DNA of 64,000 bases from Coxiellales bacterium (GCA_965242995.1 CBDETP010000009.1:645-64644), one strand, 5' to 3'; positions 13,242 through 62,243 are shown, numbered from the stretch's first letter. Numbers and translations are program-made. Notes: generated by a model from the sequence alone, not told the origin.

Positions 13242-14324
13242 TCAGGTAAGAGCATGTTGAATAATGCCACCACCAAGACAGTGATTACCCTTATAAAGAA
13301 CAATTGATTGGCCCGGAGTAATTGCCCATTGTGGCGTGTCAAATACCACCTTATATTGATTATTGTCCATTAAGCTAACGATACAATTTTGAGCATCTTG
13401 CCTATAGCGAATTTGTGCCTGGCAGTGCAAGGGAAATGAGGGCGGAGCGTTAATCCAGTGAAGTGGCTGAGTCACAAGGCTTGTGTTTTTTAATAGTGGG
13501 TGATCATGCTGTTGCCCAACAATGAGCGTGTTTTCAGCCAGCTTTTTTTCAACAACATACCATGGTGCTTCCTTTGCTTTTTTTACACCGCCAATATTCA
13601 ACCCTTTCCGTTGGCCAATTGTATAAAACATTAAACCATCGTGCTGTGCAATTGTGTCGCCTTCTGTGGTTTTTATCGGGCCAGGCTTGTTGAGCAAATA
13701 TTTTTGCATAAAAGGCTTAAAGTGTTTTTCACCAATAAAACAAATGCCCGTGCTGTCTTTTTTATTGTGGTTAATAAGGCCCGCAGATTCTGCTATTTGA
13801 CGAATTTCAGGCTTGGTATATTTTGCTAAAGGAAATAAGCATTGCTCAAGTATCTTTTCAGTCAGCGTGTATAAAAAATAACTTTGGTCTTTGTTGTCAT
13901 CAATGGGGCAATGAAGTTCATATCGATCATTTTTGTTTTCAATTGCTGCATAATGGCCTGTTGCCAGAAAGCTAGCACCCAAGGATTTAACATGATTAAG
14001 TAATCGTTTAAATTTAATTTCTCTATTGCAAAGTATGTCTGGGTTAGGTGTTCTTCCTTGGGTGAGCTCATCGAGCATATTTTCAAAAACTTCTTGCCAA
14101 TAAGCATCTGAGAAATTAACTGTTTGAAGTGGAATATTCAGCTTGTCACAAACAGCACGAGCATCGCTCAGGTCTTGCTCTGCCTGACAGTCGGCATCTG
14201 AATCTTCTTGCCAGTTTTGCATAAAAACACCCAGAAGAGGGTACCCTTGCTTTTGCAAAAGTAAGGCAGCAACAGCTGAGTCAACGCCACCGGACAAGCC
14301 GACAGCGACAAGTGGTTTTTCCAT
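13242..14324 (-). CDS. mnmA: tRNA 2-thiouridine(34) synthase MnmA
   Basis: PP-loop VGLSGGVDSAV and conserved ..PNPDILCN.EIKF.. I prefer ATG 14324 to the TTG at 14351 used by the ORF track. Confidence 0.9.
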   Translation of the reverse strand: MEKPLVAVGLSGGVDSAVAALLLQKQGYPLLGVFMQNWQEDSDADCQAEQDLSDARAVCDKLNIPLQTVNFSDAYWQEVFENMLDELTQGRTPNPDILCNREIKFKRLLNHVKSLGASFLATGHYAAIENKNDRYELHCPIDDNKDQSYFLYTLTEKILEQCLFPLAKYTKPEIRQIAESAGLINHNKKDSTGICFIGEKHFKPFMQKYLLNKPGPIKTTEGDTIAQHDGLMFYTIGQRKGLNIGGVKKAKEAPWYVVEKKLAENTLIVGQQHDHPLLKNTSLVTQPLHWINAPPSFPLHCQAQIRYRQDAQNCIVSLMDNNQYKVVFDTPQWAITPGQSIVLYKGNHCLGGGIIQHALT

Positions 14325-14455
14325 GCCCGCTAGTGTAGAGGATTTAAACAAGCAGTCAAGTTTTTATCAGAAAAGGGGCTTATGTTTGGGCTATTGTTTT
14401 TCAAGTGAGGGTGCTATGATGTCGACCGATTATTGAATAGATAAGGAGTTAAATT

Positions 14456-15715
14456 ATGTCATTTGAAAAAATCAAGATTCCAGCCCAAGGTGAAAAAGTT
14501 TCAGTCAATGCTCAGGGTGAACTAAGCGTACCAAATCAGCCAATTGTACCTTTTATTGAGGGCGATGGGATTGGTGTGGATATCACTCCGGTAATGAAAA
14601 AAGTCATTGATACGGCCGTTGAAAAAGCCTATGGCGGTGAAAAAGCCATTCAGTGGATGGAAGTTTATGCAGGTGAAAAAGCCACTAAAGTCTATGGTGA
14701 TGACCAATGGCTACCAGAAGAAACATTAACTGCATTACAGGAATATGCCGTTTCTATTAAAGGCCCACTAACAACACCGGTTGGCGGCGGCATTCGCTCT
14801 TTAAATGTTGCTATGCGCCAAATGCTAGATTTATACGTATGCCTGCGTCCAGTTCGTTATTTCAACGGTGTTCCTAGTCCGGTTAAACACCCTGAAAAAA
14901 TTGATATGGTTATTTTCCGTGAGAATTCAGAAGACATTTATGCGGGAATTGAATGGGAATCTGGCAGTAAAGAAGTTAAACAATTAATTGAATATTTACA
15001 GACTGAAATGCAAGTTGAAAAAATTCGTTTTCCAGCAACCAGTGCATTAGGTATAAAGCCTGTATCTAAAGAAGGAACATTTCGCCTGGTACGTAAAGCC
15101 ATTCAGTATGCAATAGATCAAAATCGTGATTCAGTCACATTGGTGCATAAAGGTAATATTATGAAGTTTACTGAAGGTGCTTTTCGTGACTGGGGTTATG
15201 AAATCGCTAGAGAAGAATTTGGCGCGGTTGCCTACGAAGGGGGTCCTTGGCATGTGCTAAAAAATCCAAATAACGGCAAAGATATTATTATCAAAGACTC
15301 TATTGCTGATGCATTTTTACAACAAATATTATTGCGCCCAGCAGAATACTCTGTAATTGCAACGCTTAACTTAAATGGCGATTATGTTTCTGATGCTCTA
15401 GCTGCTCAAGTGGGTGGCATTGGTATTGCACCAGGCGCTAACTTAAGTGACAACGTAGCCTTATTTGAAGCAACGCATGGCACCGCACCTAAATATGCCG
15501 GTCAAGATAAAGTAAACCCGGGTTCTTTGATTTTATCCGCTGAAATGATGCTGCGACATATGGACTGGCACGATGCAGCTGATCTTGTTATTAAGGGCAT
15601 GGAAGGCGCTATTATTAATAAAACGGTTACTTATGATTTTGCACGATTAAGTGATGATGCCACGGAAGTCAGCTGTTCTGGCTTTGGTGAGGCAATGATT
15701 AAGGCCATGAGCTAA
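14456..15715 (+). CDS. icd: NADP-dependent isocitrate dehydrogenase
   Basis: 419 aa, homodimeric Icd pattern (..[10 protein letters not shown].., ..[12 protein letters not shown].., ..NLNGDY.SDA..). Confidence 0.95.
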
Positions 15716-40688: not shown

Positions 40689-41717
40689 TTGAGCACAATA
40701 ACAATTGCAGTTGATGCTATGGGCGGTGATCACGGCCCATCAGTTACTGTTCCTGCTGCAATAAGCTCTTTAGAGAATCACCCTGGCTTAAACCTCATTT
40801 TAGTTGGCAATGAGAATAAGCTTCGCAACACCCTTGAAGAGTCAGGCTATAGCTCCTCACGACTTCAAATTCAGCATGCTTCGCAGCAAGTTGGAATGGA
40901 TGAATCACCTGTAGCAGCATTACGCTTTAAAAAAGATTCTGCTATGCGCGTTGCCATCAACTTAGTGTCGTCAGGGGATGCTCAAGCTTGCGTTAGCGCA
41001 GGCAATACGGGCGCTCTTATGGCAACAGCTCGGTTCGTTTTAAAAACCTTGCCCGGCATTGATCGCCCCGCAATAATAGCTGGGTTACCAACGGCTCAAG
41101 AAGGGAAGGACGTTAGACTGCTAGATTTAGGTGCCAACGTTGATAGTAACGCAGAACACCTTCGTCAGTTTGCCTTAATGGGCTCCATATTAATCTCCTC
41201 TACAGAAGGAATAAAGAATCCCCGTGTTGGTTTACTCAATATTGGTGAAGAAGACATAAAAGGGAATGATCTAGTTAAAAAAGCATCGGCACTACTAGCA
41301 GAAACAAAAAGCATTAATTATATTGGTTACATAGAGGCCAACCATATTTTCACGGGTGACGTGGACCTAGTGGTTTGTGATGGTTTTGTTGGCAATGTGA
41401 TGCTGAAAACCTGTGAAGGACTTGCAAAACTCATTGCTACTTTTGTAAAACAAGATGCCTATAGAAGCTGGCTTAGCAAATTATTAGCCTTTCCTTCTAA
41501 GTTTGTTTTCAAGGGGTTAAAGAAAAATCTTGACCCCAGGTCTAGGAATGGTGCAATTTTTTTAGGCTTAAATGGTGTTGTCGTTAAAAGCCATGGTCGA
41601 GCAGATATTAAAGCTTTCACTCATGCTATAAGCGAAGCAGTTTTAGAGGCTGAAAAAAACATTCCAGAGCAAATTCGTCAGCAATTAGAGGTTTTGTTGG
41701 TTAAGGATGATGCTTAA
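40689..41717 (+). CDS. plsX: Phosphate acyltransferase PlsX
   Basis: ..[11 protein letters not shown].., ..GN.GA.MA.., conserved position after rpmF. TTG start. Confidence 0.9.
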
Positions 41718-52891: not shown

Positions 52892-53653
52892 ATGGCAGAA
52901 GAAAGAAAAAACCCCGAACGAATTCAAAAAGTGCTGGCCCGAGCAGGCATAGCCTCTCGCCGCAAAATAGAAGAATGGATTAAAGAAGGCCGGATCAGCG
53001 TTAACGGTAGCGTTGCTACATTAGGCGATCGAATTCATGAAAATCACCGTGTCTATATTGATAGTCGCTTAATTGATTTAAGTGCCGAGCAAACAACTCG
53101 TGTTTTATTGTACCACAAACCAATCGATGAAATTTGCACCCGCACAGACCCTGAGGACAGAGCAACAGTTTATGATAATCTGCCTGATTTGAAAACAGGC
53201 CGCTGGTTGAGCATTGGCCGACTAGACATCAACACATCAGGCTTACTATTATTCACCAATGATGGCGAGCTAGCGCATCGAATGATGCATCCTTCGTTTC
53301 AATTAGAAAGAGAATATAGCGCTAGAGTTTTAGGCAATGTAGACAAAGCAATGATGGAGCGCTTGACTCAAGGCGTAAAACTTGAAGATGGCGTGGGCCG
53401 CTTTGAGCACATTGTCTCAAGAGGTGGTGAAGGTGCGAATCGCTGGTATCAATTGGTTGTAATGGAGGGACGGAAACGTTTGGTTCGGCGTTTATGGGAA
53501 TCACAAGACCGCCAAGTAAACCGCTTAACTCGTGTTCGCTTTGGCCCGATTTCTCTACCAAGAGGCCTTCCTCTGGGAAAAACCAGAGAATTAAATGCTC
53601 GCTTAGTGAATCAATTAATTGAAGCCACAAGCTCAAAAAAAGAAAAAGGTTAG
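52892..53653 (+). CDS. rluB: 23S rRNA pseudouridine synthase RluB (RsuA family with S4 domain)
   Basis: ..RIQKVLA.AG.ASRR..E..I..GR..VNG, GRLD..TSGLLL.TNDGELA..L.HP....EREY..RV... Confidence 0.9.
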   Translation: MAEERKNPERIQKVLARAGIASRRKIEEWIKEGRISVNGSVATLGDRIHENHRVYIDSRLIDLSAEQTTRVLLYHKPIDEICTRTDPEDRATVYDNLPDLKTGRWLSIGRLDINTSGLLLFTNDGELAHRMMHPSFQLEREYSARVLGNVDKAMMERLTQGVKLEDGVGRFEHIVSRGGEGANRWYQLVVMEGRKRLVRRLWESQDRQVNRLTRVRFGPISLPRGLPLGKTRELNARLVNQLIEATSSKKEKG

Positions 53654-53660
53654 TGTTATC

Positions 53661-53945
53661 GTGAAAGTTTTAGTTTTTTATGTGGTTGAGTCACATATTG
53701 AAAAAGTAAAAGAAGCTATTTTCAAAGCACAGGGCGGTGAATCAGAGCATTTTGAACAATGCTCTTGGCAAACACTTGGTGATGGACAATATAAAGAAAA
53801 AACTCAAACTGATCTTGTCAAAAATCCCGAATACAAAGTCGAAATTCTTTGTGAAGATACTAAAATAAAACACGCCATAAAAGCACTACTAGAATCGCAC
53901 CCATGCGACCATCCGCCACACTATGTTTTAAGCCCAGATTCTTAA
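53661..53945 (+). CDS. Small PII-fold-like protein resembling the stand-alone Nif3/YqfO cap-domain family (tentative)
   Basis: VKVLVFYVVESHIEKVKEAIFKAQGG..FEQCSWQTLGDGQY....Q.....PEYKVEILCED..IKHAIKALLESHP.D.P.HYVL. The family assignment is recognised from memory only. GTG 53661 follows the rluB stop. Confidence 0.4.
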   Translation: MKVLVFYVVESHIEKVKEAIFKAQGGESEHFEQCSWQTLGDGQYKEKTQTDLVKNPEYKVEILCEDTKIKHAIKALLESHPCDHPPHYVLSPDS

Positions 53946-53967: not shown

Positions 53968-56706
53968 TTAATCTTCTTTTTTTGGTGGGCCCGCAGCAAT
54001 TAGGCTAATTGTTTTCTCACCACAATTATCCGCTATTGCCTTGTACGCTTCATCACGAAGTCGTAATGACTCACTCCAACTATTTTCTACCGGAAAAATC
54101 AAACTGCTAACATGAATTTTAATGAAATTTGGTCGAAACATACAACTGCCGTCACGTAAAACAGTGCGAACACCTTGAATACTCACGGGGCACACAGGAG
54201 ACATTGTTTCAGCTGCTATTTTAAAAGTTCCCATTTTAAACGGCCTTAATCCCGTCGCATAAGTGAATGTTCCTTCTGCAAAAATCAAAACAGAACGGCC
54301 AGATTTTACAGTCTCAGTGATTTCAGCTATTTCACCAGGTGTTTTAGTGAAATCCACAGGATTCACAAAAATATAACCCAAATGCTGCATCAGTTTTTTC
54401 AAAAAACCAACATCAGAAAGTTCTTGTTTGCCGATATAAGAAATATCGCTAGGTAAAACAGAAATTAAAGCTACAATATCTAAATATCCAGTATGATTAG
54501 CAGTATAAACAATCGGTGTTTTTGATTCACCCACACTTGGATCTTCTGAATATTTAATAGGGCAAAACATACTAGCAAATAAAAACTTACACCATAATTT
54601 CAAGAATTTTGCTCCAAGCTTTCTTGGCAGGCACATTATAATTATCCAGCCAGGAGGCCCCGTTAAAACTAGGATTATTCCCACGTAAAAGGTATATATA
54701 ACGCGTAAGGAAAACTTTATTTTTCCCGACAATATATTCCATATTTTTTTTGATTTTACCTTGATTTTTTGAATTAAAGAGGGGGATAACTCTCTTCCCA
54801 GTGAATTATTCTCATAATCTTTCTTACATTGAAATCTTTTAATCTTACCACTCAAGGTTCTTGGCAAGCTATTATTTTTAAGAAAAATTATTTTTTCAGG
54901 CGTTGAAATTCCAGATTGCTTTAATTTCTTACTAACTATCTCTCTAACATTACTATGCTGGCTAGCAGAATCAACAGTTGTTTCAACCACCAATATATAG
55001 TTCTCATTTGAATCATTAAATGCGGCAACACTATTAGCATTAATATCCGGCAGCATGCCTACAAGATTTTCAATCACTTTAGCATAACACTGCTTGCTTT
55101 CTTTTAAATAAATCAAACCCTGCTCTCTACCAATCACAAATAAACTTTTATTAACGGTATAACCATAATCTCCTGAGCTAATCCAGCGCCTTGAATCATC
55201 CTCAAAGCTTGATGGGCGAGAAAATTGAATTTTTCCGATTTGTCTGTCTTTTAAAACCACACCATCACTATCTGCAATTCTAATATCATTATTTCCAACA
55301 ACTTCCCCACAATTAACATAATCAATACTTAGACTAGTGTCTGTTTTTTCCGCCGTATTTTCTTTTAGCAATCTATCAAGGCTTGCTTGATCTGTTTGAT
55401 ATTTATTTCCAGGGTTGCTTATTGTTAATAACGCTCCATTTTCTGTTAAAGCATAGGCAGGAGTTAAGCATGTTTCCTTAAACCCATAAGGGGAAAACTT
55501 TTGGTTAAATGCATTTAAAGTATCTACTTGCGGCTGGTCTGTGGCAACAAGTGCAACTCGACAGCTACTAATATCCAATCCATCTAATGTATGAAACTTT
55601 ATTTTTTGTGTGCACTGAGCAAGGTCAAAGTCACTCGCTACAGAAATAGTCCCTTGATGGAAATGAATTGCCCACAGCCAGCGTTCTGGCTGCTGTAAAA
55701 AATCATTATAATCAATTAAAACCAGGGGAATTCCTGCATACAAACTAGTTAAACACATTGAAATCAAACTGACACTATTATTTAAAGGGAGCCAATTTAC
55801 CACAATATCGCTTGGCGACATGCTCATTGCATCAATGGATGATTTGATATTTTCTAAAACACTTTCTTGTCTAAGAAGAATTTCTTTTTTATCCCCTGTA
55901 GTCCCAGCTGTTAATAAACCAACAACTCCGTTATTTTTTTCATTTATACAGATATTTTGATCTTTATGCTTAACGTCCAAAGCATCGCTAGGCGATAGAA
56001 ATATAATTTTCTTTAAATTCAATTGAGACTTTAGATTATCTTCTGCGATTACAAAATCAACATCGCCATCAATCAAAAAGGGGGGGAGAGACTGCTTTTT
56101 TTCTTTCAATAATAAAGGGGAAGAAATAATTGGCCTTCCGCCTAACAGCAGTGATGCAAAAAAGGCATAAAAAAACTCGCATGAGGTGGGCAATGCAATG
56201 ACAATTTTATTGCCTGGCCGCAACCCTTTTTCTTTTAAATAACAAGCCATGTTAATGGTCTCATTATATAATTCTTGATAACTGAGGGTTGCTTCTTTTC
56301 CGTCAGCGTTTTGCAAATATAACCAAGTCCGCAAAGGGTCTTGTTGCTTTCCCAATAATAAAATATCAACGAGTGATTCAGCCGAACGCATGTCAATTTC
56401 AGGAAGGTCAGCAATATGATCAACAAAATGATACTCTGGTTGCTTTTGCTCTAGCTTATTTAGAATTTCTTCATAAATGACATCTAAGTTGTCGGCTCTG
56501 GCGATAGAATTTTCTTCCAGTCGAATAGAAAATATTTTTTCTAATCGCTGCATTAGCTCTATTCTTTCAATGCTACCAATACCTAAATCATAAGTTAATG
56601 ATTTTTCAAGCGTCACCGCTCGATAAGCTTGCTTATGCCCAGACTCAATTAAAAAGCTTTGAGTTGCCTTGATAATAGCTGCTTGAATTGCTTGGTTTTT
56701 CTTCAT
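53968..56706 (-). CDS. Tri-functional fusion: N-terminal carrier (PP-binding-like) domain, acyl-AMP/acyl-CoA ligase-type adenylation domain, TM helices, and a C-terminal PlsC/LPLAT-type acyltransferase domain
   Basis: Carrier: ..DLGIGSIERIELMQRLE... Adenylation cores: LLTAGTTGDKKE, YALTENG, SSGDYGY, VIGREQGLI, LPRTLSGKIKR. Hydrophobic helices at about aa 655-720. Acyltransferase: NHTGYLD (HX4D), FAEGTFT, VCPVSIQG. Confidence 0.8.
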   Translation of the reverse strand: MKKNQAIQAAIIKATQSFLIESGHKQAYRAVTLEKSLTYDLGIGSIERIELMQRLEKIFSIRLEENSIARADNLDVIYEEILNKLEQKQPEYHFVDHIADLPEIDMRSAESLVDILLLGKQQDPLRTWLYLQNADGKEATLSYQELYNETINMACYLKEKGLRPGNKIVIALPTSCEFFYAFFASLLLGGRPIISSPLLLKEKKQSLPPFLIDGDVDFVIAEDNLKSQLNLKKIIFLSPSDALDVKHKDQNICINEKNNGVVGLLTAGTTGDKKEILLRQESVLENIKSSIDAMSMSPSDIVVNWLPLNNSVSLISMCLTSLYAGIPLVLIDYNDFLQQPERWLWAIHFHQGTISVASDFDLAQCTQKIKFHTLDGLDISSCRVALVATDQPQVDTLNAFNQKFSPYGFKETCLTPAYALTENGALLTISNPGNKYQTDQASLDRLLKENTAEKTDTSLSIDYVNCGEVVGNNDIRIADSDGVVLKDRQIGKIQFSRPSSFEDDSRRWISSGDYGYTVNKSLFVIGREQGLIYLKESKQCYAKVIENLVGMLPDINANSVAAFNDSNENYILVVETTVDSASQHSNVREIVSKKLKQSGISTPEKIIFLKNNSLPRTLSGKIKRFQCKKDYENNSLGRELSPSLIQKIKVKSKKIWNILSGKIKFSLRVIYTFYVGIILVLTGPPGWIIIMCLPRKLGAKFLKLWCKFLFASMFCPIKYSEDPSVGESKTPIVYTANHTGYLDIVALISVLPSDISYIGKQELSDVGFLKKLMQHLGYIFVNPVDFTKTPGEIAEITETVKSGRSVLIFAEGTFTYATGLRPFKMGTFKIAAETMSPVCPVSIQGVRTVLRDGSCMFRPNFIKIHVSSLIFPVENSWSESLRLRDEAYKAIADNCGEKTISLIAAGPPKKED

Positions 56707-56891
56707 GAATTAATACCATTTTTCTGGTTTTACTCTGCATTTTAAAAGTATAGCATTATCATGAAAAAAAAATTAAAAATCAAGAGATTGCGAGAACTTA
56801 ACTCAAAAAAATCACTAACCAATTATTGGACTGTATCCTGCCTACTGTTTGCGGTATCATAGCAAGAATTTTCATCATGCAAGGAAAGCAA

Positions 56892-58193
56892 ATGGGTGAT
56901 AATACAACACTACAGGGCAGGGCCGTCTATATTGTGGATGGTGCTCGAACTCCTTTCTTAAAGGCCATGACAGGGCCTGGGCCATTTTCAGCATCGGATA
57001 TGGCTGTCTCTTGTGGCCAATCACTACTTGCTCGCCAACCATTCAAACCAGAACAACTTGATGAAGTCATCATTGGTTGCATGGTTCCAAGTGAGGATGA
57101 GGCAAACATTGGTCGCTTAATTGCCTTGCGATTAGGCTGCGGCAATAATGTTCCTGGCTGGACAGTTCAGCGTAATTGCGCGTCCGGCATGCAGGCATTA
57201 GATTCTGCAATTAAAGACATCGCTATTGGCCGACACGACTTGATACTTGCCGGCGGTACAGAAACTATGAGCAGGGCACCTCTAATTTTTCCACCAGGCA
57301 TGGCCAAATGGTTAGTGGCCTGGCAAAAAGCAATGAGAAAAGGTGGACGACTTAAAACACTAACTCGCTTTCGTCTTGCCTTTTTGAAGCCTATTATTGC
57401 CTTACTACATGGCTTAACCGATCCCTTGATTGGCATGAGTATGCCGGAAACGGCTGAATTAATTGCTTATCGTTTTGGAATTACTCGTAAAGAAATGGAT
57501 GAATACAGTGTCACCAGCCAACACCGCGCAGCAAATGCTGAGCAAAATAATTTATTTAGCGAAATTGAGCCATTATACGATCACACCGGTAAAGTTTATC
57601 TAACTGACGATGGTATACGTAAAGATACTGATTTGGAGAAATTAACTAAGCTTAAGTCAATCGTTAATCGTCGCTATGGCATTGTCACGGCAGGGAATAG
57701 CTCACAAATTACTGATGGTGCAGCATTATTACTTCTCGCAAGCCAAGAAGCTGTTGAAAAACATAATTTACCCGTAATGGGGGAAATTAAAGATGTGCAA
57801 TGGTCTGGTTTAGCACCAGAGTTGATGGGGCTTGGTCCAGTTTATTCATCTACTGCCATTATGCAAAGACAACTACTCGCGCTAGATGACATTGATTACT
57901 GGGAAATTAATGAGGCCTTTGCAGGTCAGGTATTAGGCTGTTTAGCCGCCTGGGATAGTAACGATTTTTGCACAAAACAACTTGGTTTAGAGCAAAAAGT
58001 AGGTTGCTTAAATTTAGAAAAGCTTAACATTGACGGCGGCGCTATTGCCTTAGGGCATCCTGTTGGTGCTTCCGGTGCGCGTATTGTCTTGCATCTACTA
58101 CACGTACTTGCAAGAAAACAAGCCCGGTTAGGCATGGCTACTTTATGCATTGGTGGCGGGCAGGGTGGTTCTATGTTGTTGGAACGCAGCTAA
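56892..58193 (+). CDS. Acetyl-CoA C-acyltransferase (3-ketoacyl-CoA thiolase), FadI/FadA-like
   Basis: ..VYIVDGARTPF.., active-site ..QRNCASGMQA.., ..NEAFA.Q.., ..GGAIALGHP.GASG.R.., ..LCIGGGQG... AGGAAAG RBS before ATG 56892 (alternative ATG at 56877). Confidence 0.9.
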   Translation: MGDNTTLQGRAVYIVDGARTPFLKAMTGPGPFSASDMAVSCGQSLLARQPFKPEQLDEVIIGCMVPSEDEANIGRLIALRLGCGNNVPGWTVQRNCASGMQALDSAIKDIAIGRHDLILAGGTETMSRAPLIFPPGMAKWLVAWQKAMRKGGRLKTLTRFRLAFLKPIIALLHGLTDPLIGMSMPETAELIAYRFGITRKEMDEYSVTSQHRAANAEQNNLFSEIEPLYDHTGKVYLTDDGIRKDTDLEKLTKLKSIVNRRYGIVTAGNSSQITDGAALLLLASQEAVEKHNLPVMGEIKDVQWSGLAPELMGLGPVYSSTAIMQRQLLALDDIDYWEINEAFAGQVLGCLAAWDSNDFCTKQLGLEQKVGCLNLEKLNIDGGAIALGHPVGASGARIVLHLLHVLARKQARLGMATLCIGGGQGGSMLLERS

Positions 58194-58212
58194 AAGCAAG
58201 GAGAAATATACA

Positions 58213-60207
58213 ATGGATTATAAACAATATAAGAATTGGAAAATTAAAATAGACAATGATTTTGTTTTATGGTTAGGGCTCGATAAGCACAATGAACGTG
58301 TAAACACTTTAGATAGAAATGTTTTAGAGGAGTTTGAGCAACTCATTGAAGAAATCATTAAAAATAAGCCTCAGGGCGTTGTTATTTATTCTTGTAAATC
58401 ACAAGGCTTTATTGCCGGTGCTGACATAAAACAGTTCACCTTATTAAAAAACCGTGAAGAAGGGCTAGCACTAGTAAGGTACGTGCAAAAACTATTTGAT
58501 ACTTGGGAGCAGCTACCCATGCCAACCGTTGCCATGATTAAAGGCTTTTGTTTGGGTGGCGGCACTGAGCTTGCATTAGCTTGTAATTACCGCGTTGCTC
58601 AAGATCAGTTAAGCACTCGCATTGGTCTACCTGAAGTGAAATTAGGAATAAACCCTGGCTGGGGTGGCACAGTTCGCTTGCCACGTTTAATTGGTCCAAT
58701 GAAAGCCATGTCACTCATCTTATCTGGCAGGCTGCTTGCCCCACGAGCCGCAAAAAAACTAGGCATAGTCAATGCTGTCACTAAAGAAGCGGAACTAGAA
58801 AATGCAGCAAAATATTTTATAACAAAAAAACCAAAACCCAAGTCAATAGCACTATCTGAAAAAATTGCTAGCTTTTCATTTATTCGTCCCTTGGTAGCTA
58901 ATCAGATTAGAAAAACGCTCAATAAAAAAATACAAAAATCTCACTATCCGGCACCTTTTGCCATTGTCGATAATTGGGTGAAGTATGGCGCAAAAGGTGA
59001 AGCGGCAATGGTCAATGAAGCTGAGACCATTGCTGACTTACTCACAACACCAACTAGCCAAAATTTAGTTCGCGTGTTTTTCTTGCAAGAAAAACTAAAA
59101 GCTCAAGCGAAAAGTAGTGATTTTAAAGCCGAACATGTTCATGTTATAGGTGCTGGCACCATGGGTGGCGACATAGCTGCTTGGTGTGCGCTGCGCGGGC
59201 TACGTGTAACACTGCAAGATCAAACACCTGAGGCCATAGCCCCTGCAGTTGCCAGAGCTTACCAATTATTTAAAAAAAAGCTGAGGGTTCCTTTTTTAAT
59301 TAAAGCCGCAATGGACAGGCTACAACCCGATTGTGAAGGCTTCGGAGTCAGGCAGGCCGATGTTGTGATTGAAGCCATATTTGAAAATTTAGAAGCAAAA
59401 CAATCACTTTTTAAATCCATTGAAACTGAGCTTAAACCTGGCGCCATCATGGCATCGAACACATCAAGTATCCCTTTAAATGATATTTCAGCAGCACTCA
59501 ATGAACCAGAGCGCTTAATAGGTATCCATTATTTTAACCCTGTCGCTAAAATGCCGTTGGTTGAAATAGTTCATACCACACAAACCCATGAGAGCATCAT
59601 CAATAACGCCCTTGCCTTTACCAAACAAATTGGCAAATTGCCCTTATTGGTAACGAGTACGCCAGGATTTTTGGTTAATCGCGTGCTAATGCCTTATCTA
59701 CTTGAAGCTGTTTATTTGCTTGATGAAGGCTTTAGTGCTCAAGCAATAGATCAGTGCGCACTGGACTTTGGCATGCCGATGGGGCCAATTACACTAGCAG
59801 ATACCATTGGCCTTGATATTTGCTTATCAGTTGCCAAAAACCTAACCGCACACTTTGGCGGCAAAGTTCCAGAAAAATTACAAAAAAAAGTAGACCGTGG
59901 TGAACTAGGTTGCAAAAGTGAGCGTGGCTTTTATCACTACAAAAAAGGTAAAAAAGCAAGTAAAACAGGCTCCAGCGGCAAAGCAGCTGATAAAGACATA
60001 AGTCATCGATTAGTGCTGCGCTTTGTGAATGAAGCAATGAGCTGCTTGCGTGAAAAAGTAGTTGCTCACGCGGACTTTCTCGATGCTGGCATAATTTTTG
60101 GCACAGGCTTCGCGCCTTTTCGAGGTGGACCAATGCACTATGCAAGCAGCGTAGGGACTGATACCATTATCAAAGATTTAGAAGAGCTGGAAAAAAAAAT
60201 ATGGTGA
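58213..60207 (+). CDS. Fatty-acid oxidation multifunctional enzyme (enoyl-CoA hydratase plus 3-hydroxyacyl-CoA dehydrogenase), FadJ/FadB-like; 3' end apparently frameshifted
   Basis: N-terminal crotonase fold (..GFIAGADI.., ..G.C.GGG.ELALAC..R) and C-terminal HACD (VIGAGTMGGDIA). AAGGAG RBS before ATG 58213. The reading frame stops inside an A9 run; another frame continues ..YGERFKPDAGWKEEILAKKESV* to 60268. Confidence 0.9.
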   Translation: MDYKQYKNWKIKIDNDFVLWLGLDKHNERVNTLDRNVLEEFEQLIEEIIKNKPQGVVIYSCKSQGFIAGADIKQFTLLKNREEGLALVRYVQKLFDTWEQLPMPTVAMIKGFCLGGGTELALACNYRVAQDQLSTRIGLPEVKLGINPGWGGTVRLPRLIGPMKAMSLILSGRLLAPRAAKKLGIVNAVTKEAELENAAKYFITKKPKPKSIALSEKIASFSFIRPLVANQIRKTLNKKIQKSHYPAPFAIVDNWVKYGAKGEAAMVNEAETIADLLTTPTSQNLVRVFFLQEKLKAQAKSSDFKAEHVHVIGAGTMGGDIAAWCALRGLRVTLQDQTPEAIAPAVARAYQLFKKKLRVPFLIKAAMDRLQPDCEGFGVRQADVVIEAIFENLEAKQSLFKSIETELKPGAIMASNTSSIPLNDISAALNEPERLIGIHYFNPVAKMPLVEIVHTTQTHESIINNALAFTKQIGKLPLLVTSTPGFLVNRVLMPYLLEAVYLLDEGFSAQAIDQCALDFGMPMGPITLADTIGLDICLSVAKNLTAHFGGKVPEKLQKKVDRGELGCKSERGFYHYKKGKKASKTGSSGKAADKDISHRLVLRFVNEAMSCLREKVVAHADFLDAGIIFGTGFAPFRGGPMHYASSVGTDTIIKDLEELEKKIW

Positions 60208-60271: not shown

Positions 60272-61056
60272 ATGAACACAGACCCCGCAAAAGACGACGC
60301 AAACACTCAAACTTCAGAGTTTTTTAAAATCGTTGGTTTATCTTTTCGTCATTATCTTAGTATATTAAAAAAATGCTGGCTGCTAATACTCATATTAATG
60401 CTTTGCAGAGAGTCCTTATCATTTTTTCCACCAGTGTCTGCAAGCATCGTACTCGACAGGGTTGTTTTAGGCGCATTTAGCTTAATTATTCTTTATTTTT
60501 TTCTGTGACACTTTACCTAACGCATTCATGCATCTTTAAAAAAGCAGACTCCATAGAGTCAGCTTTTTTAATTGTGCTAAAAAAATTCTGGAAAATCATC
60601 ATTACTTCCGTCGTTTTTTTGTTATTATTGCTTGCCGTCTTTTATACATCGCTGCATCTGCTAACGCTGCTCTCACATCATATGCAAAACAAAGGCAGTA
60701 TTGCTGTAATGCTGAGTTACTTTTTCATCCTCATTCTACCGCTAATGATTTATATTGGTTTTTTCTTTTTAACACTACCGATTGCAATCGTTAAAAACCT
60801 GAGCTTAGCTGATACCTACAAAAAATCCTTCATCATTGGAAAGAGCAATGCTATGAAAATGGTTTTAGCCTTTCTTTTACTGATTATTTTAGTTTGCTCT
60901 GTCCACCCTGAAACCATTTTCTTTCCAATTTTTAACAATCTATATTTGGCTTATTTTACAGACATGATTTACTGCTTTGTGGTTTATCCCTTTTTATTTT
61001 CTTTTCTTGTTTGCTTTTTACAGAAAACTGAACAAAAGGCTAGCGATCAAGCATGA
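60272..61056 (+). pseudogene. Polytopic membrane protein of unknown function, split by a frameshift in a T-run
   Basis: ORFs 60272-60508 and 60505-61056 are both hydrophobic and contiguous. Adding one T to the T7 run at about 60495-60501 joins them (..LIILYFFS|VTLYLTH..). Confidence 0.6.
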
Positions 61057-62243
61057 ACCTTTTGAAAAAAATAAAACAAAAAATTCACCTTGTTGTTGGT
61101 GTTTTTGTTCTTGCTGTTTTTATCGGCTTTGCCATTTACAGTTTTTTCATCAAAGGTTTTCATGTTAAAAAAAGCACTTTTTCAAAACTACCTGGCTGGT
61201 CACAGGCAAATTTACAAAAAAGCCTAGCGGCATGGCAGCAGTCGTGTCAGCGTATCATGAGCTTCCCTCATAAAATGAATGTCGGCTCCAGCACTATTAA
61301 GCTAAAAGCTGGTAACTGGCGGCCTGTCTGCCAAGCTGCTCTTTCACTAAAAAACCCCACTAACAATCAAATTAAAGACTATTTTCAAAACTGGTTTCAG
61401 CCATGGCAAATCAAATTTGGCTCACATACACACGGCATTTTTCACCGGTTACTATCTATATAGTTTGCAGGGTCGCCTAAAAAAGCAGTTGGGGGTTTAC
61501 GGTGCCGGTTTATGCCATGCCCAGTGATGCAGTAATGATATACCCGCACCAATTTTGATCACTCACAAAAACATACTAAATGGGTCGGCAAAGTGATGAA
61601 CAATCGCGTCAGACCTTATCCTATGCTTAAGCGTGCTGAGATCAATCGACACGGCTTGGCAGAGGCTAAAGTGTTAGCCTGGGTGCCTAGTCGGGTCGAT
61701 CGATTATTTTTAATGATTCAAGGTTCAGGCATAGTACATTTACCGAATGACAAAAGCTTGCTGCTAAGCTATGCCGGTGAAAATGGGTATAAGAATACTT
61801 TAATTGGCCACTTTTTTATTAAAGAAAATTTAATTCCACGCAGTCAACTTTCAATGGACAGCATCAAGGCTTGGATTAAAGCTCACCCCAGGCGGGGCAG
61901 GGAGCTGATGAACAAGAACCCAGCCTTTGTGTTTTTTAAAACATCGCGCCATGGTTCAGTGGTCGGTACTGAAGGTGTCCCACTAACCGGTGGCACCTCT
62001 TTGGCAGTTGATCCACACTATATGCCGCTAGGTGCGCCCATTTGGTTAAACACAACTTTCCCGGCAAGCAAGCAATCCCTTCAGCGTTTAATGGTGGCTC
62101 AAGACACCGGCGGTGCAATTTCAGGGGCCATTCGTGGTGATGTTTATTGGGGCGATGGTGACATAGCACGTAAAAGAGCATCGGTAATGCGGCAGACCGG
62201 GCAATATTGGGTACTAATGCCGAAGGGGTGGTCACCACATTAA
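61053..62243 (+). pseudogene. mltA: Membrane-bound lytic murein transglycosylase A with at least 3 frame disruptions
   Basis: The MltA-like sequence moves across frames within about 110 bp: ..THGIF (frame of 61053), then FTGYYLYSLQGRLKKQ, then WGFTVPVYAMPSDAVMI, then NFDHSQKHTKWVGKVMNNRVRPYPMLKRAEI... The C-terminal part (..AVDP..MPLGAP.WL..........L.RLM.AQDTGGAI.G..R.D.YWG.G..A) is intact. Confidence 0.8.

What the first reader, a model, noticed from the sequence alone, without database searches (positions are those of the whole stretch)
53968..56706. 912-aa carrier - adenylation - TM - acyltransferase fusion: a self-contained fatty-acid activation and lipid re-acylation enzyme with unusual domain order
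The N-terminus (about 80 aa) looks like a phosphopantetheine carrier (DLGIGSIERIELMQRLE). The middle ~500 aa carry all the adenylate-forming cores I could check: TAGTTGDKK, YALTE, SGD, GR.QG.I, LPRTLSGKIKR. After 2-3 hydrophobic helices there is a PlsC/LPLAT domain with HX4D (NHTGYLD), FAEGT and PV.I.G motifs. E. coli Aas joins the same two chemistries in the opposite order and uses free ACP. The myxobacterial ether-lipid enzyme ElbD, as I recall it, combines a ligase, a carrier, a reductase and an AGPAT domain. This carrier-first, reductase-less, membrane-embedded version is not an architecture I can name. The gene is more AT-rich than its neighbours by spot counts (about 35-37%). It lies divergent from a beta-oxidation pair, which suggests handling of exogenous (host-derived?) fatty acids.
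Basis: partly seen in the sequence, partly recalled or inferred. Interest (0 to 1): 0.65.

Follow-up and report, generated by a model that had tools for sequence, protein, structure and literature searches.

The report
Carrier-FAAL-acyltransferase fusion, divergent copy
This is a real 912-residue membrane enzyme that probably activates a free fatty acid, holds it on its own carrier domain and attaches it to a membrane lipid; the family is widespread but untested, and this copy has an unusually fast-evolving activating domain.

Summary
The ORF is real: 53968-56706, minus strand, 912 aa. All four parts are confirmed:
- an ACP-fold carrier with Ser45;
- a fatty acyl-AMP ligase (FAAL) with the FAAL-specific insertion;
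- a long hydrophobic helix plus an amphipathic helix;
- an LPLAT/AGPAT domain with an intact HX4D.

The carrier-first architecture is not rare. At least 594 species genomes across many phyla encode it, and an exhaustive protein search returned at least 150 clusters. Two FAAL surveys mention FAAL-LPLAT fusions. I found no biochemistry on them. The gene stands alone, and the beta-oxidation neighbours occur only in this genome.

The likely mechanism is like Aas but self-contained and CoA-independent: fatty acid to acyl-AMP, to acyl-S-carrier, to a lyso-lipid. The acceptor is unknown.

This genome has PlsX, PlsY, a YihG-type LPAAT and one Sfp-type PPTase. It lacks Aas, LplT and PlsB. The enzyme is therefore accessory.

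What is new is that this copy is an extreme outlier.
- Its nearest relative is 36% identical.
- It departs at 75 of 186 family-conserved columns, against a median of 5. Of these, 67 lie in the adenylation domain.
- The core catalytic residues survive.
- A strain variant gives pN/pS 0.30 for that domain, against 0.10 for LPLAT and 0.03-0.07 for the neighbouring genes.

Interest is moderate to low.

The parts
53968..56706 (-). Whole ORF, 912 aa plus stop: the carrier-FAAL-anchor-LPLAT fusion protein (P0001)
   Evidence: A strain variant in run X2 keeps the frame open, with no indel or stop.
56449..56706 (-). N-terminal ACP-fold carrier domain, residues 1-86. The presumed phosphopantetheine site is Ser45 (codon 56572-56574) in DLGIGSIER.
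   Evidence: Ser45 is invariant in 66 sequences. The family profile hits PDB ACPs at E 2e-13. The AF2 model and Foldseek find ACPs only. Ser45 sits at the N-terminus of helix 45-59.
56374..56448 (-). Flexible linker, residues 87-111, between the carrier and the ligase
   Evidence: No secondary structure is modelled here, and pLDDT falls to 59 over residues 91-100.
55123..56373 (-). FAAL N-terminal subdomain, residues 112-528. It holds A3 LTAGTTGDKKE (265-275), A4 WLPLNNSVSL (305-314), A5 YALTE (418-422), A7 SGD (511-513) and the A8 Arg527. It is strongly divergent from the family.
   Evidence: E. coli FAAL 3pbk, TM 0.83. It departs at 48 of 106 conserved columns. Motifs are shown.
55327..55410 (-). 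FAAL-specific insertion, roughly residues 433-460, after YALTE
   Evidence: It is an insertion of about 27 aa relative to the genome's own FadD and to FACL-type relatives. It aligns with the same segment of E. coli FAAL.
54799..55122 (-). FAAL C-terminal subdomain, residues 529-636, with A10 PRTLSGKIKR (Lys621). The hinge Asp is replaced by Gly530 and the A8 loop is remodelled.
   Evidence: It departs at 19 of 37 conserved columns. Motifs are shown.
54571..54774 (-). Membrane anchor: a long helix (645-692) containing the hydrophobic stretch 663-695 with a central P-x-W, then an amphipathic helix (695-712)
   Evidence: Hydropathy. AF2 helices. Residues 672-882 align with T. maritima PlsC 5kym residues 22-227.
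53992..54558 (-). LPLAT/AGPAT acyltransferase core, residues 717-905. Block I is NHTGYLD (His738-Asp743, 54478-54495), block III FAEGT, block IV PVCPV. The block II Arg is replaced (R783P).
   Evidence: N737, H738, D743, E811, G826, P840 and G845 are invariant. Motifs are shown.
56755..56783 (-). Sigma-70-like promoter candidate (TTGATT-17-GATAAT) in the 119-bp divergent intergenic region. There is no PmrA box here.
   Evidence: the number of such sites in the region is not above the shuffled expectation. The PmrA pattern occurs only at 24274 and 26173.
56826..60207 (+). Divergent neighbours, not part of the system: a thiolase (56826-58193) and an enoyl-CoA hydratase/3-hydroxyacyl-CoA dehydrogenase fusion (probable start 58212, end 60207)
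   Evidence: Pfam. No such genes lie near any of 80 related loci.

Best explanation
The gene encodes a divergent member of a widespread, biochemically untested family of single-polypeptide lipid-acylating enzymes. The domain order is ACP-like carrier, fatty acyl-AMP ligase (FAAL), helical membrane anchor, then an LPLAT/AGPAT acyltransferase.

Proposed cycle (inferred from the domain families, not shown):
1. The genome's only phosphopantetheinyl transferase, which is of the Sfp/HetI type, converts Ser45 to the holo form.
2. The FAAL domain uses ATP to turn a free long-chain fatty acid into acyl-AMP. Being a FAAL with the insertion motif, it passes the acyl group to a pantetheine arm and not to CoA. 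Here that arm is on its own carrier, tethered by a linker of about 25 residues.
3. The acyl-S-carrier docks on the membrane-anchored LPLAT domain. The HX4D His738 activates a hydroxyl of a lyso-lipid acceptor, and the acyl chain is esterified.

The acceptor is unknown. It is probably a lysophospholipid and not LPA, because block III is EGTF and not EGTR, and in this copy the block II Arg is also gone.

Functionally this is an Aas-like re-acylation or exogenous fatty-acid incorporation step that needs neither CoA, free AcpP nor LplT. In this 1.63-Mb host-associated gammaproteobacterium it is accessory to a complete PlsX/PlsY/YihG pathway.

This copy sits on a very long branch. Its adenylation domain has evolved about three times faster, relative to the family, than its carrier and LPLAT domains. 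It nevertheless keeps the catalytic residues and is still under purifying selection, so I take it to be active, possibly with altered specificity or kinetics.
For: Domains:
- establish the four parts.
- The FAAL insertion is present.
- The best sequence and structure matches are E. coli and L. pneumophila FAALs.

Family:
- Full-length carrier-first homologues occur in 10 of 41 genomes of the same class.
- At least 594 loci across many phyla encode relatives.
- An exhaustive search returned at least 150 representative clusters.
- Ser45, the P-loop T266/G268/T270/K274, E422, D513, R527, K621 and the HX4D are invariant in 66 sequences, this one included.
- There is no conserved neighbourhood, so the protein is self-contained.

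Genome context:
- One Sfp-type PPTase.
- PlsX, PlsY and a YihG-family LPAAT are present.
- No Aas, PlsB or LplT.

Selection, from a strain variant with 44 SNPs and no indel or stop:
- pN/pS is 0.22 overall.
- The adenylation domain gives 0.30, significantly below neutral (p = 9e-4).
- LPLAT gives 0.10.

Origin of the adenylation domain: it groups with the family (support 0.93) and keeps the family-specific PERWLWAIH motif.
Against: - No activity, product or acceptor is known for any family member.
- Pfam PP-binding is below threshold in this copy.
- This copy scores 209 bits on the FAAL model, against 410-439 for typical members. No NCBIfam model reaches its cut-off.
- It has lost 67 of 143 family-conserved adenylation-domain residues. 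These include the A4 His310, NGAEP, Gly419, the hinge Asp530 and the A8 loop GRN..P. There is also a deletion of about 13 aa after A6. Several of these line the pantetheine tunnel or adenine pocket in other ANL enzymes (my recollection of that literature), so one or both half-reactions could be impaired.
- pN/pS in this domain is higher than in the neighbouring genes (Fisher p = 0.02).
- Presence of the family does not anticorrelate with Aas among relatives, so functional replacement of Aas is not supported by distribution.
Confidence: 0.55

Rival explanations
1. In this lineage the adenylation domain is catalytically impaired, a pseudo-enzyme or scaffold. The protein then survives mainly as a membrane LPLAT that takes acyl groups in trans, from acyl-AcpP made by FASII or from acyl-CoA made by the genome's FadD. 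The carrier is vestigial or regulatory.
For: - The adenylation domain departs at 45-51% of family-conserved columns, against 15-18% in the carrier and LPLAT.
- Its identity to close relatives is half what those relatives share with each other. The carrier and LPLAT reach 86-89% of that level.
- Its terminal branch is 6.6 times the family median, against 2.1-2.9 times for the other domains.
- The A4 His, NGAEP, hinge Asp and A8 loop are lost, and there is a deletion.
- pN/pS is 0.30, against 0.10 in LPLAT and 0.03-0.07 in the neighbours.
- A relative with a 1.7-Mb genome carries a fully pseudogenised copy, so the gene is dispensable in reduced genomes.
Against: - Every residue I take to be directly catalytic in ANL enzymes is retained: the P-loop Thr/Gly/Lys, Glu422, Asp513, Arg527 and Lys621. 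With 47% loss at conserved columns, keeping 9 of 9 by chance has a probability of about 0.003 (my calculation).
- The domain is significantly constrained (p = 9e-4 against neutrality).
- The 1.6-kb domain has no frameshift or stop in two strains.
- The fold is modelled confidently as a FAAL.
- The difference in pN/pS between the adenylation and LPLAT domains is not significant (p = 0.24).
Confidence: 0.25
2. The family does not re-acylate glycerophospholipids. It O-acylates another acceptor, such as a lyso-aminolipid, a glycolipid, a lipid A or polysaccharide precursor, or diacylglycerol. It would then be a loading-and-transfer module for a specialised lipid.
For: - LPLAT block III is EGTF and not the EGTR typical of PlsC. 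The PlsC/AGPAT domain model is below its cut-off (88.7 bits against 102.95).
- The LPLAT superfamily includes OlsA and lipid A acyltransferases (PMC11631085).
- FAALs usually feed specialised metabolites (PMC8460268, PMC12820801).
- Earlier scan notes place some members at the edges of polysaccharide or lipid clusters (unchecked).
Against: - No partner gene is conserved around 77 loci.
- The best non-ligase matches are AGPAT/PlsC and the acyltransferase part of Aas-type proteins.
- The family occurs in taxa with very different envelope chemistry.
Confidence: 0.15
3. The AT-rich, fast-evolving copy is a horizontally acquired or secreted (Dot/Icm-type) effector that modifies host lipids.
For: - GC content is in the 5th percentile of the genome.
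- The genome carries PmrA-box effector cassettes elsewhere in the window.
- The branch is very long.
Against: - There is no PmrA box upstream.
- The nearest relatives in both the adenylation and LPLAT trees are the Berkiella-like gammaproteobacterial members, which fits descent within the lineage.
- Family members in free-living bacteria are ordinary cytoplasmic-membrane enzymes.
- The protein needs a bacterial PPTase and has a hydrophobic anchor.
Confidence: 0.03

Closest known systems
E. coli Aas (bifunctional 2-acyl-GPE acyltransferase / acyl-ACP synthetase), working with LplT
   Same: It joins an ATP-dependent fatty-acid-activating ANL domain to an HX4D LPLAT domain on the inner membrane. 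The acyl group travels on a phosphopantetheine arm. Its role is lysophospholipid re-acylation (PMC11416262).
   Different: - The order is reversed: Aas is LPLAT then ligase.
- Aas uses free AcpP and has no carrier domain.
- The Aas ligase is of the acyl-ACP synthetase type and not a FAAL with the insertion.
- Aas is coupled to LplT, whereas here there is no LplT and no conserved neighbour.
- The NCBIfam Aas equivalog scores 43 bits against a cut-off of 886.
Myxococcus xanthus ElbD and reductase-less ElbD-like proteins (ligase-ACP-AGPAT)
   Same: A ligase, a carrier and an AGPAT-like domain sit in one polypeptide. The ACS and ACP activities of ElbD have been shown in vitro (PMC9131029).
   Different: - ElbD has an N-terminal FAR-like reductase, and its carrier lies between the ligase and the acyltransferase.
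- ElbD was purified as a soluble protein, which suggests it is cytosolic, and it belongs to the elb ether-lipid operon.
- The reductase-less A-T-AGPAT proteins (P0008, P0015 and others) lack the FAAL insertion and align only in the shared domains.
- Here the carrier comes first, the ligase is a FAAL, and there is a hydrophobic anchor.
Stand-alone FAALs (E. coli FAAL 3pbk, L. pneumophila FAAL 3kxw/3lnv, mycobacterial FadD32/FAAL28) and FAAL-ACP loading didomains
   Same: It has the FAAL fold (TM 0.83 to 3pbk) and the insertion motif. Acyl-AMP is transferred to a holo-carrier and not to CoA (PMC8460268).
   Different: Those enzymes hand the acyl chain to PKS or NRPS machinery, and where a carrier is fused it follows the ligase. 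Here the carrier precedes the ligase and the acceptor enzyme is a fused LPLAT.
PlsC / YihG-type LPAATs
   Same: It has HX4D, EGT and PVxPV blocks and an N-terminal helical membrane anchor (5kym).
   Different: - Those are single-domain enzymes that take acyl-ACP or acyl-CoA in trans.
- Here block III lacks the Arg, and in this copy block II lacks it too.
- The genome already has a YihG-type LPAAT.

Membership tests
Carrier-first T-FAAL-LPLAT fusion family (unnamed; FAAL-LPLAT fusions are mentioned in PMC8460268 and PMC12820801) | Full-length collinear homology to proteins of about 920-970 aa with the same domain order | tested here: met
   Query residues 2-907 align at E 1e-161. At least 150 representatives align over roughly residues 10-900. 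See also alignments A2, A3 and A5.
Carrier-first T-FAAL-LPLAT fusion family (unnamed; FAAL-LPLAT fusions are mentioned in PMC8460268 and PMC12820801) | N-terminal carrier with an invariant Ser in (D/G)S(L/I)xRxEL | tested here: met
   S45, R48 and E50 are conserved. The ACP fold is confirmed.
Carrier-first T-FAAL-LPLAT fusion family (unnamed; FAAL-LPLAT fusions are mentioned in PMC8460268 and PMC12820801) | Family-typical adenylation motifs: YTSGSTGxPKG, WLPLYHDMGLIG, NGAEP, PVYGLAE, TGRxKDxIIxxGRNIYP | tested here: not met
   Only the catalytic residues are kept. It departs at 67 of 143 conserved adenylation-domain columns and has a deletion of about 13 aa. The family-specific PERWLWAIH motif is kept, and the domain groups with the family at support 0.93. 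It is therefore an aberrant member and not a non-member.
Carrier-first T-FAAL-LPLAT fusion family (unnamed; FAAL-LPLAT fusions are mentioned in PMC8460268 and PMC12820801) | A hydrophobic helix with a central P-x-W, followed by an LPLAT domain with NHxSYLD and FPEGTF | tested here: met
Fatty acyl-AMP ligase (FAAL) | FAAL-specific insertion after A5, relative to acyl-CoA ligases | tested here: met
   There is an insertion of about 27 aa relative to the genome's own FadD and to FACL-type fusions.
Fatty acyl-AMP ligase (FAAL) | A curated model score over its cut-off (NCBIfam NF006624 and related models) | tested here: not met
   It scores 209 bits against a cut-off of 600. Typical family members score 410-439, which is also below the cut-off.
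Fatty acyl-AMP ligase (FAAL) | Forms acyl-AMP, rejects CoA and transfers to a holo-carrier | not testable with these tools
   This needs enzyme assays.
Aas (acyl-ACP synthetase / 2-acyl-GPE acyltransferase) | LPLAT at the N-terminus, ligase at the C-terminus, no carrier domain, and an equivalog model over its cut-off | tested here: not met
   The order is reversed and a carrier is present. NF005959 scores 43 bits against 886, and NF006386 scores 71 against 1221.
Aas (acyl-ACP synthetase / 2-acyl-GPE acyltransferase) | Genetic or physical coupling to LplT | tested here: not met
   There is no LplT in the genome; the best match scores 30 bits against 297. No neighbour is conserved.
ElbD (ether-lipid multidomain enzyme) | A FAR-like reductase domain, a carrier between ligase and AGPAT, and the elb operon context | tested here: not met
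   There is no reductase or NAD-binding domain. The carrier is N-terminal. No elb-like neighbours are present.
PlsC/AGPAT (LPA acyltransferase) | HX4D and EGT blocks | tested here: met
   NHTGYLD and FAEGT are present, and the His and Asp are invariant.
PlsC/AGPAT (LPA acyltransferase) | A curated AGPAT model over its cut-off, and the phosphate-binding Arg residues of blocks II and III | tested here: not met
   TIGR00530 scores 88.7 against 102.95. Block III is EGTF. The block II Arg is replaced by Pro783 in this copy. That these Arg residues bind the acceptor phosphate is my recollection of the PlsC literature and was not tested.
Pfam PP-binding (PF00550) | Score at or above the gathering threshold | tested here: not met
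   It scores 15.8 bits in the whole protein and 20.2 for residues 1-95, against a cut-off of 20.8. Relatives L012 and L061 pass with 24.4 and 39.4. Profile and fold evidence support a carrier.

The most novel reading that the evidence does not exclude
In this host-associated lineage the ligase half has been retooled and is not decaying. The remodelled A4, hinge and A8 (pantetheine-tunnel) elements and substrate pocket, kept under purifying selection, would let it activate a different, possibly host-derived, carboxylic acid. Alternatively they would let acyl-AMP pass to the LPLAT site by a route other than the canonical domain alternation. The bacterium would then make an unusual membrane lipid from host material.
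Probability: 0.12. Interest if true: 0.6.

Novelty: new variant of a known kind. Interest (0 to 1): 0.36.

Why it matters
At family level, a one-protein route from free fatty acid to membrane lipid would be a further bacterial route for incorporating exogenous fatty acids and repairing membranes. It would need neither CoA, free ACP nor acyl-phosphate. It would stand beside FadD with PlsB/PlsC, Aas/AasS and FakAB-PlsX/PlsY. It is present in hundreds of environmental and some cultured species and has never been assayed.

For this window the added value is modest. It shows that one domain of such a fusion can run far ahead of the others in a reduced, host-associated genome while remaining constrained. 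This gives a natural contrast with canonical members for testing which FAAL residues are dispensable.

Tried and rejected
- **Conserved neighbourhood.** I clustered ORFs from 80 related loci. No neighbour family recurred in more than 8 loci, and none of the loci had a thiolase, FadB or RluB nearby. The beta-oxidation link was dropped.
- **PmrA/effector idea.** There is no PmrA box upstream.
- **Complementarity with Aas.** Among 41 genomes, 8 have only the family, 9 have only a full-length Aas-like protein, 2 have both and 22 have neither. This gives no signal.
- **Domain swap from another FAAL lineage.** Rejected. The adenylation domain groups with the family at support 0.93 and keeps PERWLWAIH. 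Its basal placement may be long-branch attraction.
- **Closer relatives for a better selection test.** None exists among 1.84 billion representatives; the best is 36% identical. The protein's 90% cluster is a singleton.
- **Expression evidence.** The runs holding the gene are of unknown library type, so no conclusion was possible.
- **Rfam scan of the locus.** No match.
- **Terminator scan.** None found.
- **Literature.** I found no biochemical study of the architecture. The supplements of the two surveys gave nothing further.
- **Inter-domain geometry.** I could not measure distances in the AF2 model, because coordinates are not exposed.
Full report
**Observation**

The window has one long ORF at 53968-56706. 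It lies on the minus strand and encodes 912 aa.

Pfam finds AMP-binding at residues 136-500 (E 7e-31) and the PlsC-type Acyltransferase domain at 728-843 (E 4e-24). PP-binding at 32-74 is only a sub-threshold hit (15.8 bits against 20.8). NCBIfam ranks fatty acyl-AMP ligase (FAAL) models first and AGPAT and Aas-type acyltransferase models for the C-terminus. None reaches its curated cut-off.

Against solved structures, the best sequence matches are the E. coli and L. pneumophila FAALs (3pbk, 3kxw). For residues 672-882 the best match is T. maritima PlsC (5kym).

No other ORF of 80 aa or more overlaps the gene. No Rfam family matches the locus.

**The carrier**

The N-terminal segment is a genuine ACP-fold domain.
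- In a 66-sequence alignment of the family, Ser45 is invariant within DLGxxS(L/I)xRxEL.
- A profile of the family's N-termini hits 164 solved acyl carrier proteins, best E 2e-13.
- An AF2 model of residues 1-95 (pLDDT 91) matches only ACPs among the top 50 PDB hits, with TM 0.75-0.91 and rmsd about 1.6-2 A.
- In the full-length model (pLDDT 85.7, pTM 0.67) Ser45 sits at the start of helix 45-59, the usual position for the pantetheine site. An unstructured linker (87-111) joins the carrier to the ligase.

**The ligase**

The full-length model's best structural matches are all FAALs, led by E. coli FAAL at TM 0.83. Relative to the genome's own FadD, and to FACL-type ligase-carrier-AGPAT proteins, this protein and its family carry an insertion of about 27 residues just after the YGLTE motif. 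That is where the FAAL-specific insertion lies.

**Anchor and acyltransferase**

Hydropathy shows one hydrophobic stretch (663-695) with a central Pro-x-Trp that recurs across the family. AF2 models it as part of a long helix (645-692), followed by an amphipathic helix (695-712) leading into the LPLAT core. The alignment with PlsC 5kym starts within these helices. I therefore read the segment as a PlsC-like membrane anchor and not a separate polytopic domain.

LPLAT blocks I (NHTGYLD), III (FAEGT) and IV (PVCPV) are intact. The block II Arg, conserved in more than 90% of the family, is Pro783 here.

**How common the architecture is**

The first word-indexed search found only one carrier-first relative, at 28% identity. 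It also found many proteins of about 900 aa in which the carrier lies between ligase and acyltransferase. Those are the reductase-less ElbD-like type.

Searches that read DNA or every protein changed the picture.
- 10 of 41 genomes of the same class hold full-length carrier-first homologues (27-34% identity), and one more holds a pseudogenised copy.
- A scan of species-representative genomes gave at least 594 confirmed loci. They fall in Gamma-, Beta-, Alpha- and Deltaproteobacteria, Acidobacteriota, Nitrospirota, Methylomirabilota and others. Cultured Marinobacterium, Halomonas, Neptuniibacter, Cupriavidus, Marinobacter, Halospina and Methylocystis are among them.
- An exhaustive phmmer search over 1.84 billion representatives listed at least 150 clusters, mostly collinear over the full length.

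Two FAAL surveys mention FAAL domains fused to, or in the context of, lysophospholipid acyltransferase domains, without any biochemistry (PMC8460268; PMC12820801). ElbD is described as FAR-ACS-ACP-AGPAT, and most non-myxobacterial relatives lack the FAR domain (PMC9131029). I found no experimental study of the carrier-first family. Earlier notes of this scan report the same family in several other genomes with the same conclusion. I treat those as leads only.

**Context**

Across 77 related loci no neighbouring gene family recurs in more than 8 loci. None has a thiolase, FadB or RluB nearby. The gene is therefore a stand-alone unit. The divergent thiolase and hydratase/dehydrogenase pair confirmed by Pfam is an accident of this genome.

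The genome is 1.63 Mb in 26 contigs.
- Its only other PF01553 protein is a YihG-family LPAAT at a contig edge.
- Its only other AMP-binding protein is a FadD-like ligase.
- Its only PPTase is a 244-aa Sfp/HetI-type enzyme.
- PlsX and PlsY are present.
- There is no PlsB, no Aas and no LplT.

De novo phosphatidate synthesis is thus complete without this protein, which must be accessory. A broad-specificity PPTase is available to modify Ser45.

Earlier notes describe the organism as an uncultured, Legionella- or Coxiella-like marine bacterium with PmrA-regulated effector cassettes. I found no PmrA box upstream of this gene. The gene has 35.6% GC, the 5th percentile of the genome's ORFs.

**What is unusual about this copy**

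Its nearest relative anywhere is 36% identical.
- In the 66-sequence alignment it departs at 75 of 186 columns that are at least 88% conserved. The next worst sequence departs at 14, and the median is 5.
- The departures are concentrated in the ligase: 48 of 106 columns in the N-terminal subdomain and 19 of 37 in the C-terminal subdomain. The carrier has 2 of 13 and the LPLAT 5 of 28.
- Identity to its closest relatives is 27-32% in the ligase, where those relatives share 57-59% with each other. In the carrier and LPLAT it reaches 86-89% of what the relatives share.
- Its terminal branch in the ligase tree is 2.32 substitutions per site, against a family median of 0.35. The LPLAT values are 0.92 and 0.44, and the carrier values 1.45 and 0.50. 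The nearest neighbours are the same Berkiella-like gammaproteobacterial members in both the ligase and LPLAT trees.
- Typical members score 410-439 bits on the FAAL model and 231-248 on Pfam AMP-binding. This copy scores 209 and 108.
- The five closest representatives all keep the canonical motifs.

The following family motifs are changed:

| Family motif | This copy |
|---|---|
| YTSGSTGxPKG | LTAGTTGDKKE |
| WLPLYHDMGLIG | WLPLNNSVSLIS |
| NGAEP | VATDQ |
| PVYGLAE | PAYALTE |
| GRxKD hinge | GREQG |
| GRNIYP | SKQCYA |

About 13 residues after A6 are also missing.

The following are kept, and are invariant across all 66 sequences: the P-loop Thr266/Gly268/Thr270/Lys274, Glu422 (A5), Asp513 (A7), Arg527 (A8) and Lys621 (A10). 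I regard these as the directly catalytic residues of ANL enzymes from general knowledge of that superfamily. With 47% loss at conserved columns, retaining nine such residues by chance has a probability of about 0.003. That figure is my calculation and should be taken as indicative only.

The ligase domain was not swapped in from another FAAL lineage. It groups with the family at support 0.93 and keeps the family-specific PERWLWAIH motif, although it sits at the base of the clade.

**Selection**

Contigs of a sponge-metagenome run carry a strain variant of the gene with 44 listed SNPs (1.6%) and no indel or stop.

| Region | Nonsynonymous | Synonymous | pN/pS |
|---|---|---|---|
| Whole gene | 20 | 24 | 0.22 |
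| Ligase | 18 | 16 | 0.30 |
| LPLAT | 2 | 6 | 0.10 |
| Carrier | 0 | 1 | - |
| Thiolase (control) | 1 | 11 | 0.03 |
| FadB-like (control) | 3 | 13 | about 0.07 |

- The ligase value is significantly below neutral (binomial p = 9e-4).
- The FadB-like figures are after removing three changes that lie upstream of its probable start.
- As computed before that correction, the ligase is less constrained than these neighbours (Fisher p = 0.02).
- The difference between ligase and LPLAT is not significant (p = 0.24).

The ligase is relaxed but not free to drift.

**Interpretation**

The anatomy fits a self-contained, CoA-independent acylation cycle:
1. pantetheinylation of Ser45;
2. adenylation of a free fatty acid;
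3. transfer to the enzyme's own carrier;
4. delivery to the membrane-anchored LPLAT;
5. esterification of a lyso-lipid.

Every step is inferred from the known chemistry of the domain families. None is shown.

The protein works like Aas but fails the membership tests for Aas, ElbD and PlsC. The acceptor is open. The family's EGTF block III, and this copy's loss of the block II Arg, argue weakly against LPA.

For this copy, the main rival is that the ligase is impaired and the protein serves as an LPLAT that takes acyl donors in trans. I give that 0.25, against 0.55 for a still-working fusion.

**Verdict**

The architecture is a widespread, noticed but uncharacterised variant of Aas- and ElbD-like enzymes, and it has been met repeatedly in this scan. 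The locally new point is the domain-specific acceleration of the ligase.

Noticed in passing
window 61053-62243 (+): mltA appears split. The reading frame shifts near 61440, where the conserved FFTGYY motif continues in frame +1. It then meets a stop and resumes in the original frame at 61593, where the MltA and 3D domains match. This is either a pseudogene or an assembly error.
   Followed up: partly
own genome G000, contig C23 about 14100-14830 (-): The only phosphopantetheinyl transferase detected in the 1.63-Mb genome is a 244-aa Sfp/HetI-type enzyme. No AcpS-type hit was found, so this one enzyme presumably serves both AcpP and the fusion's carrier.
   Followed up: partly
own genome G000, contig C19 70891-71226 (-), at the contig edge: The only stand-alone LPLAT is a YihG-family LPAAT that passes the NCBIfam equivalog cut-off. 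No canonical PlsC, PlsB, Aas or LplT was detected, while PlsX (window about 40701-41663) and PlsY (C14) are present.
   Followed up: partly
relative genome G038, contig C105 228-2161: A related genome of 1.7 Mb holds a pseudogenised copy of the same fusion gene, broken by more than ten stop codons. The gene has therefore been lost in at least one reduced genome.
   Followed up: no
window 58150-58212 (+): The listed 685-aa FadB/J-like ORF probably starts at the ATG at 58212. The strain in run X2 has three substitutions and a 2-nt deletion (at 58206) just upstream, which fits non-coding spacer.
   Followed up: partly
window 56080-56428 (gene residues about 93-209): SNP density against the X2 strain is several times higher in this 5' part of the gene than elsewhere, for both synonymous and non-synonymous changes. 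This could be a recombined tract.
   Followed up: no
window 53619-53945 (+): A 108-aa ORF convergent with the fusion gene overlaps the end of rluB and has no Pfam match. Whether it is a real gene is unclear.
   Followed up: no
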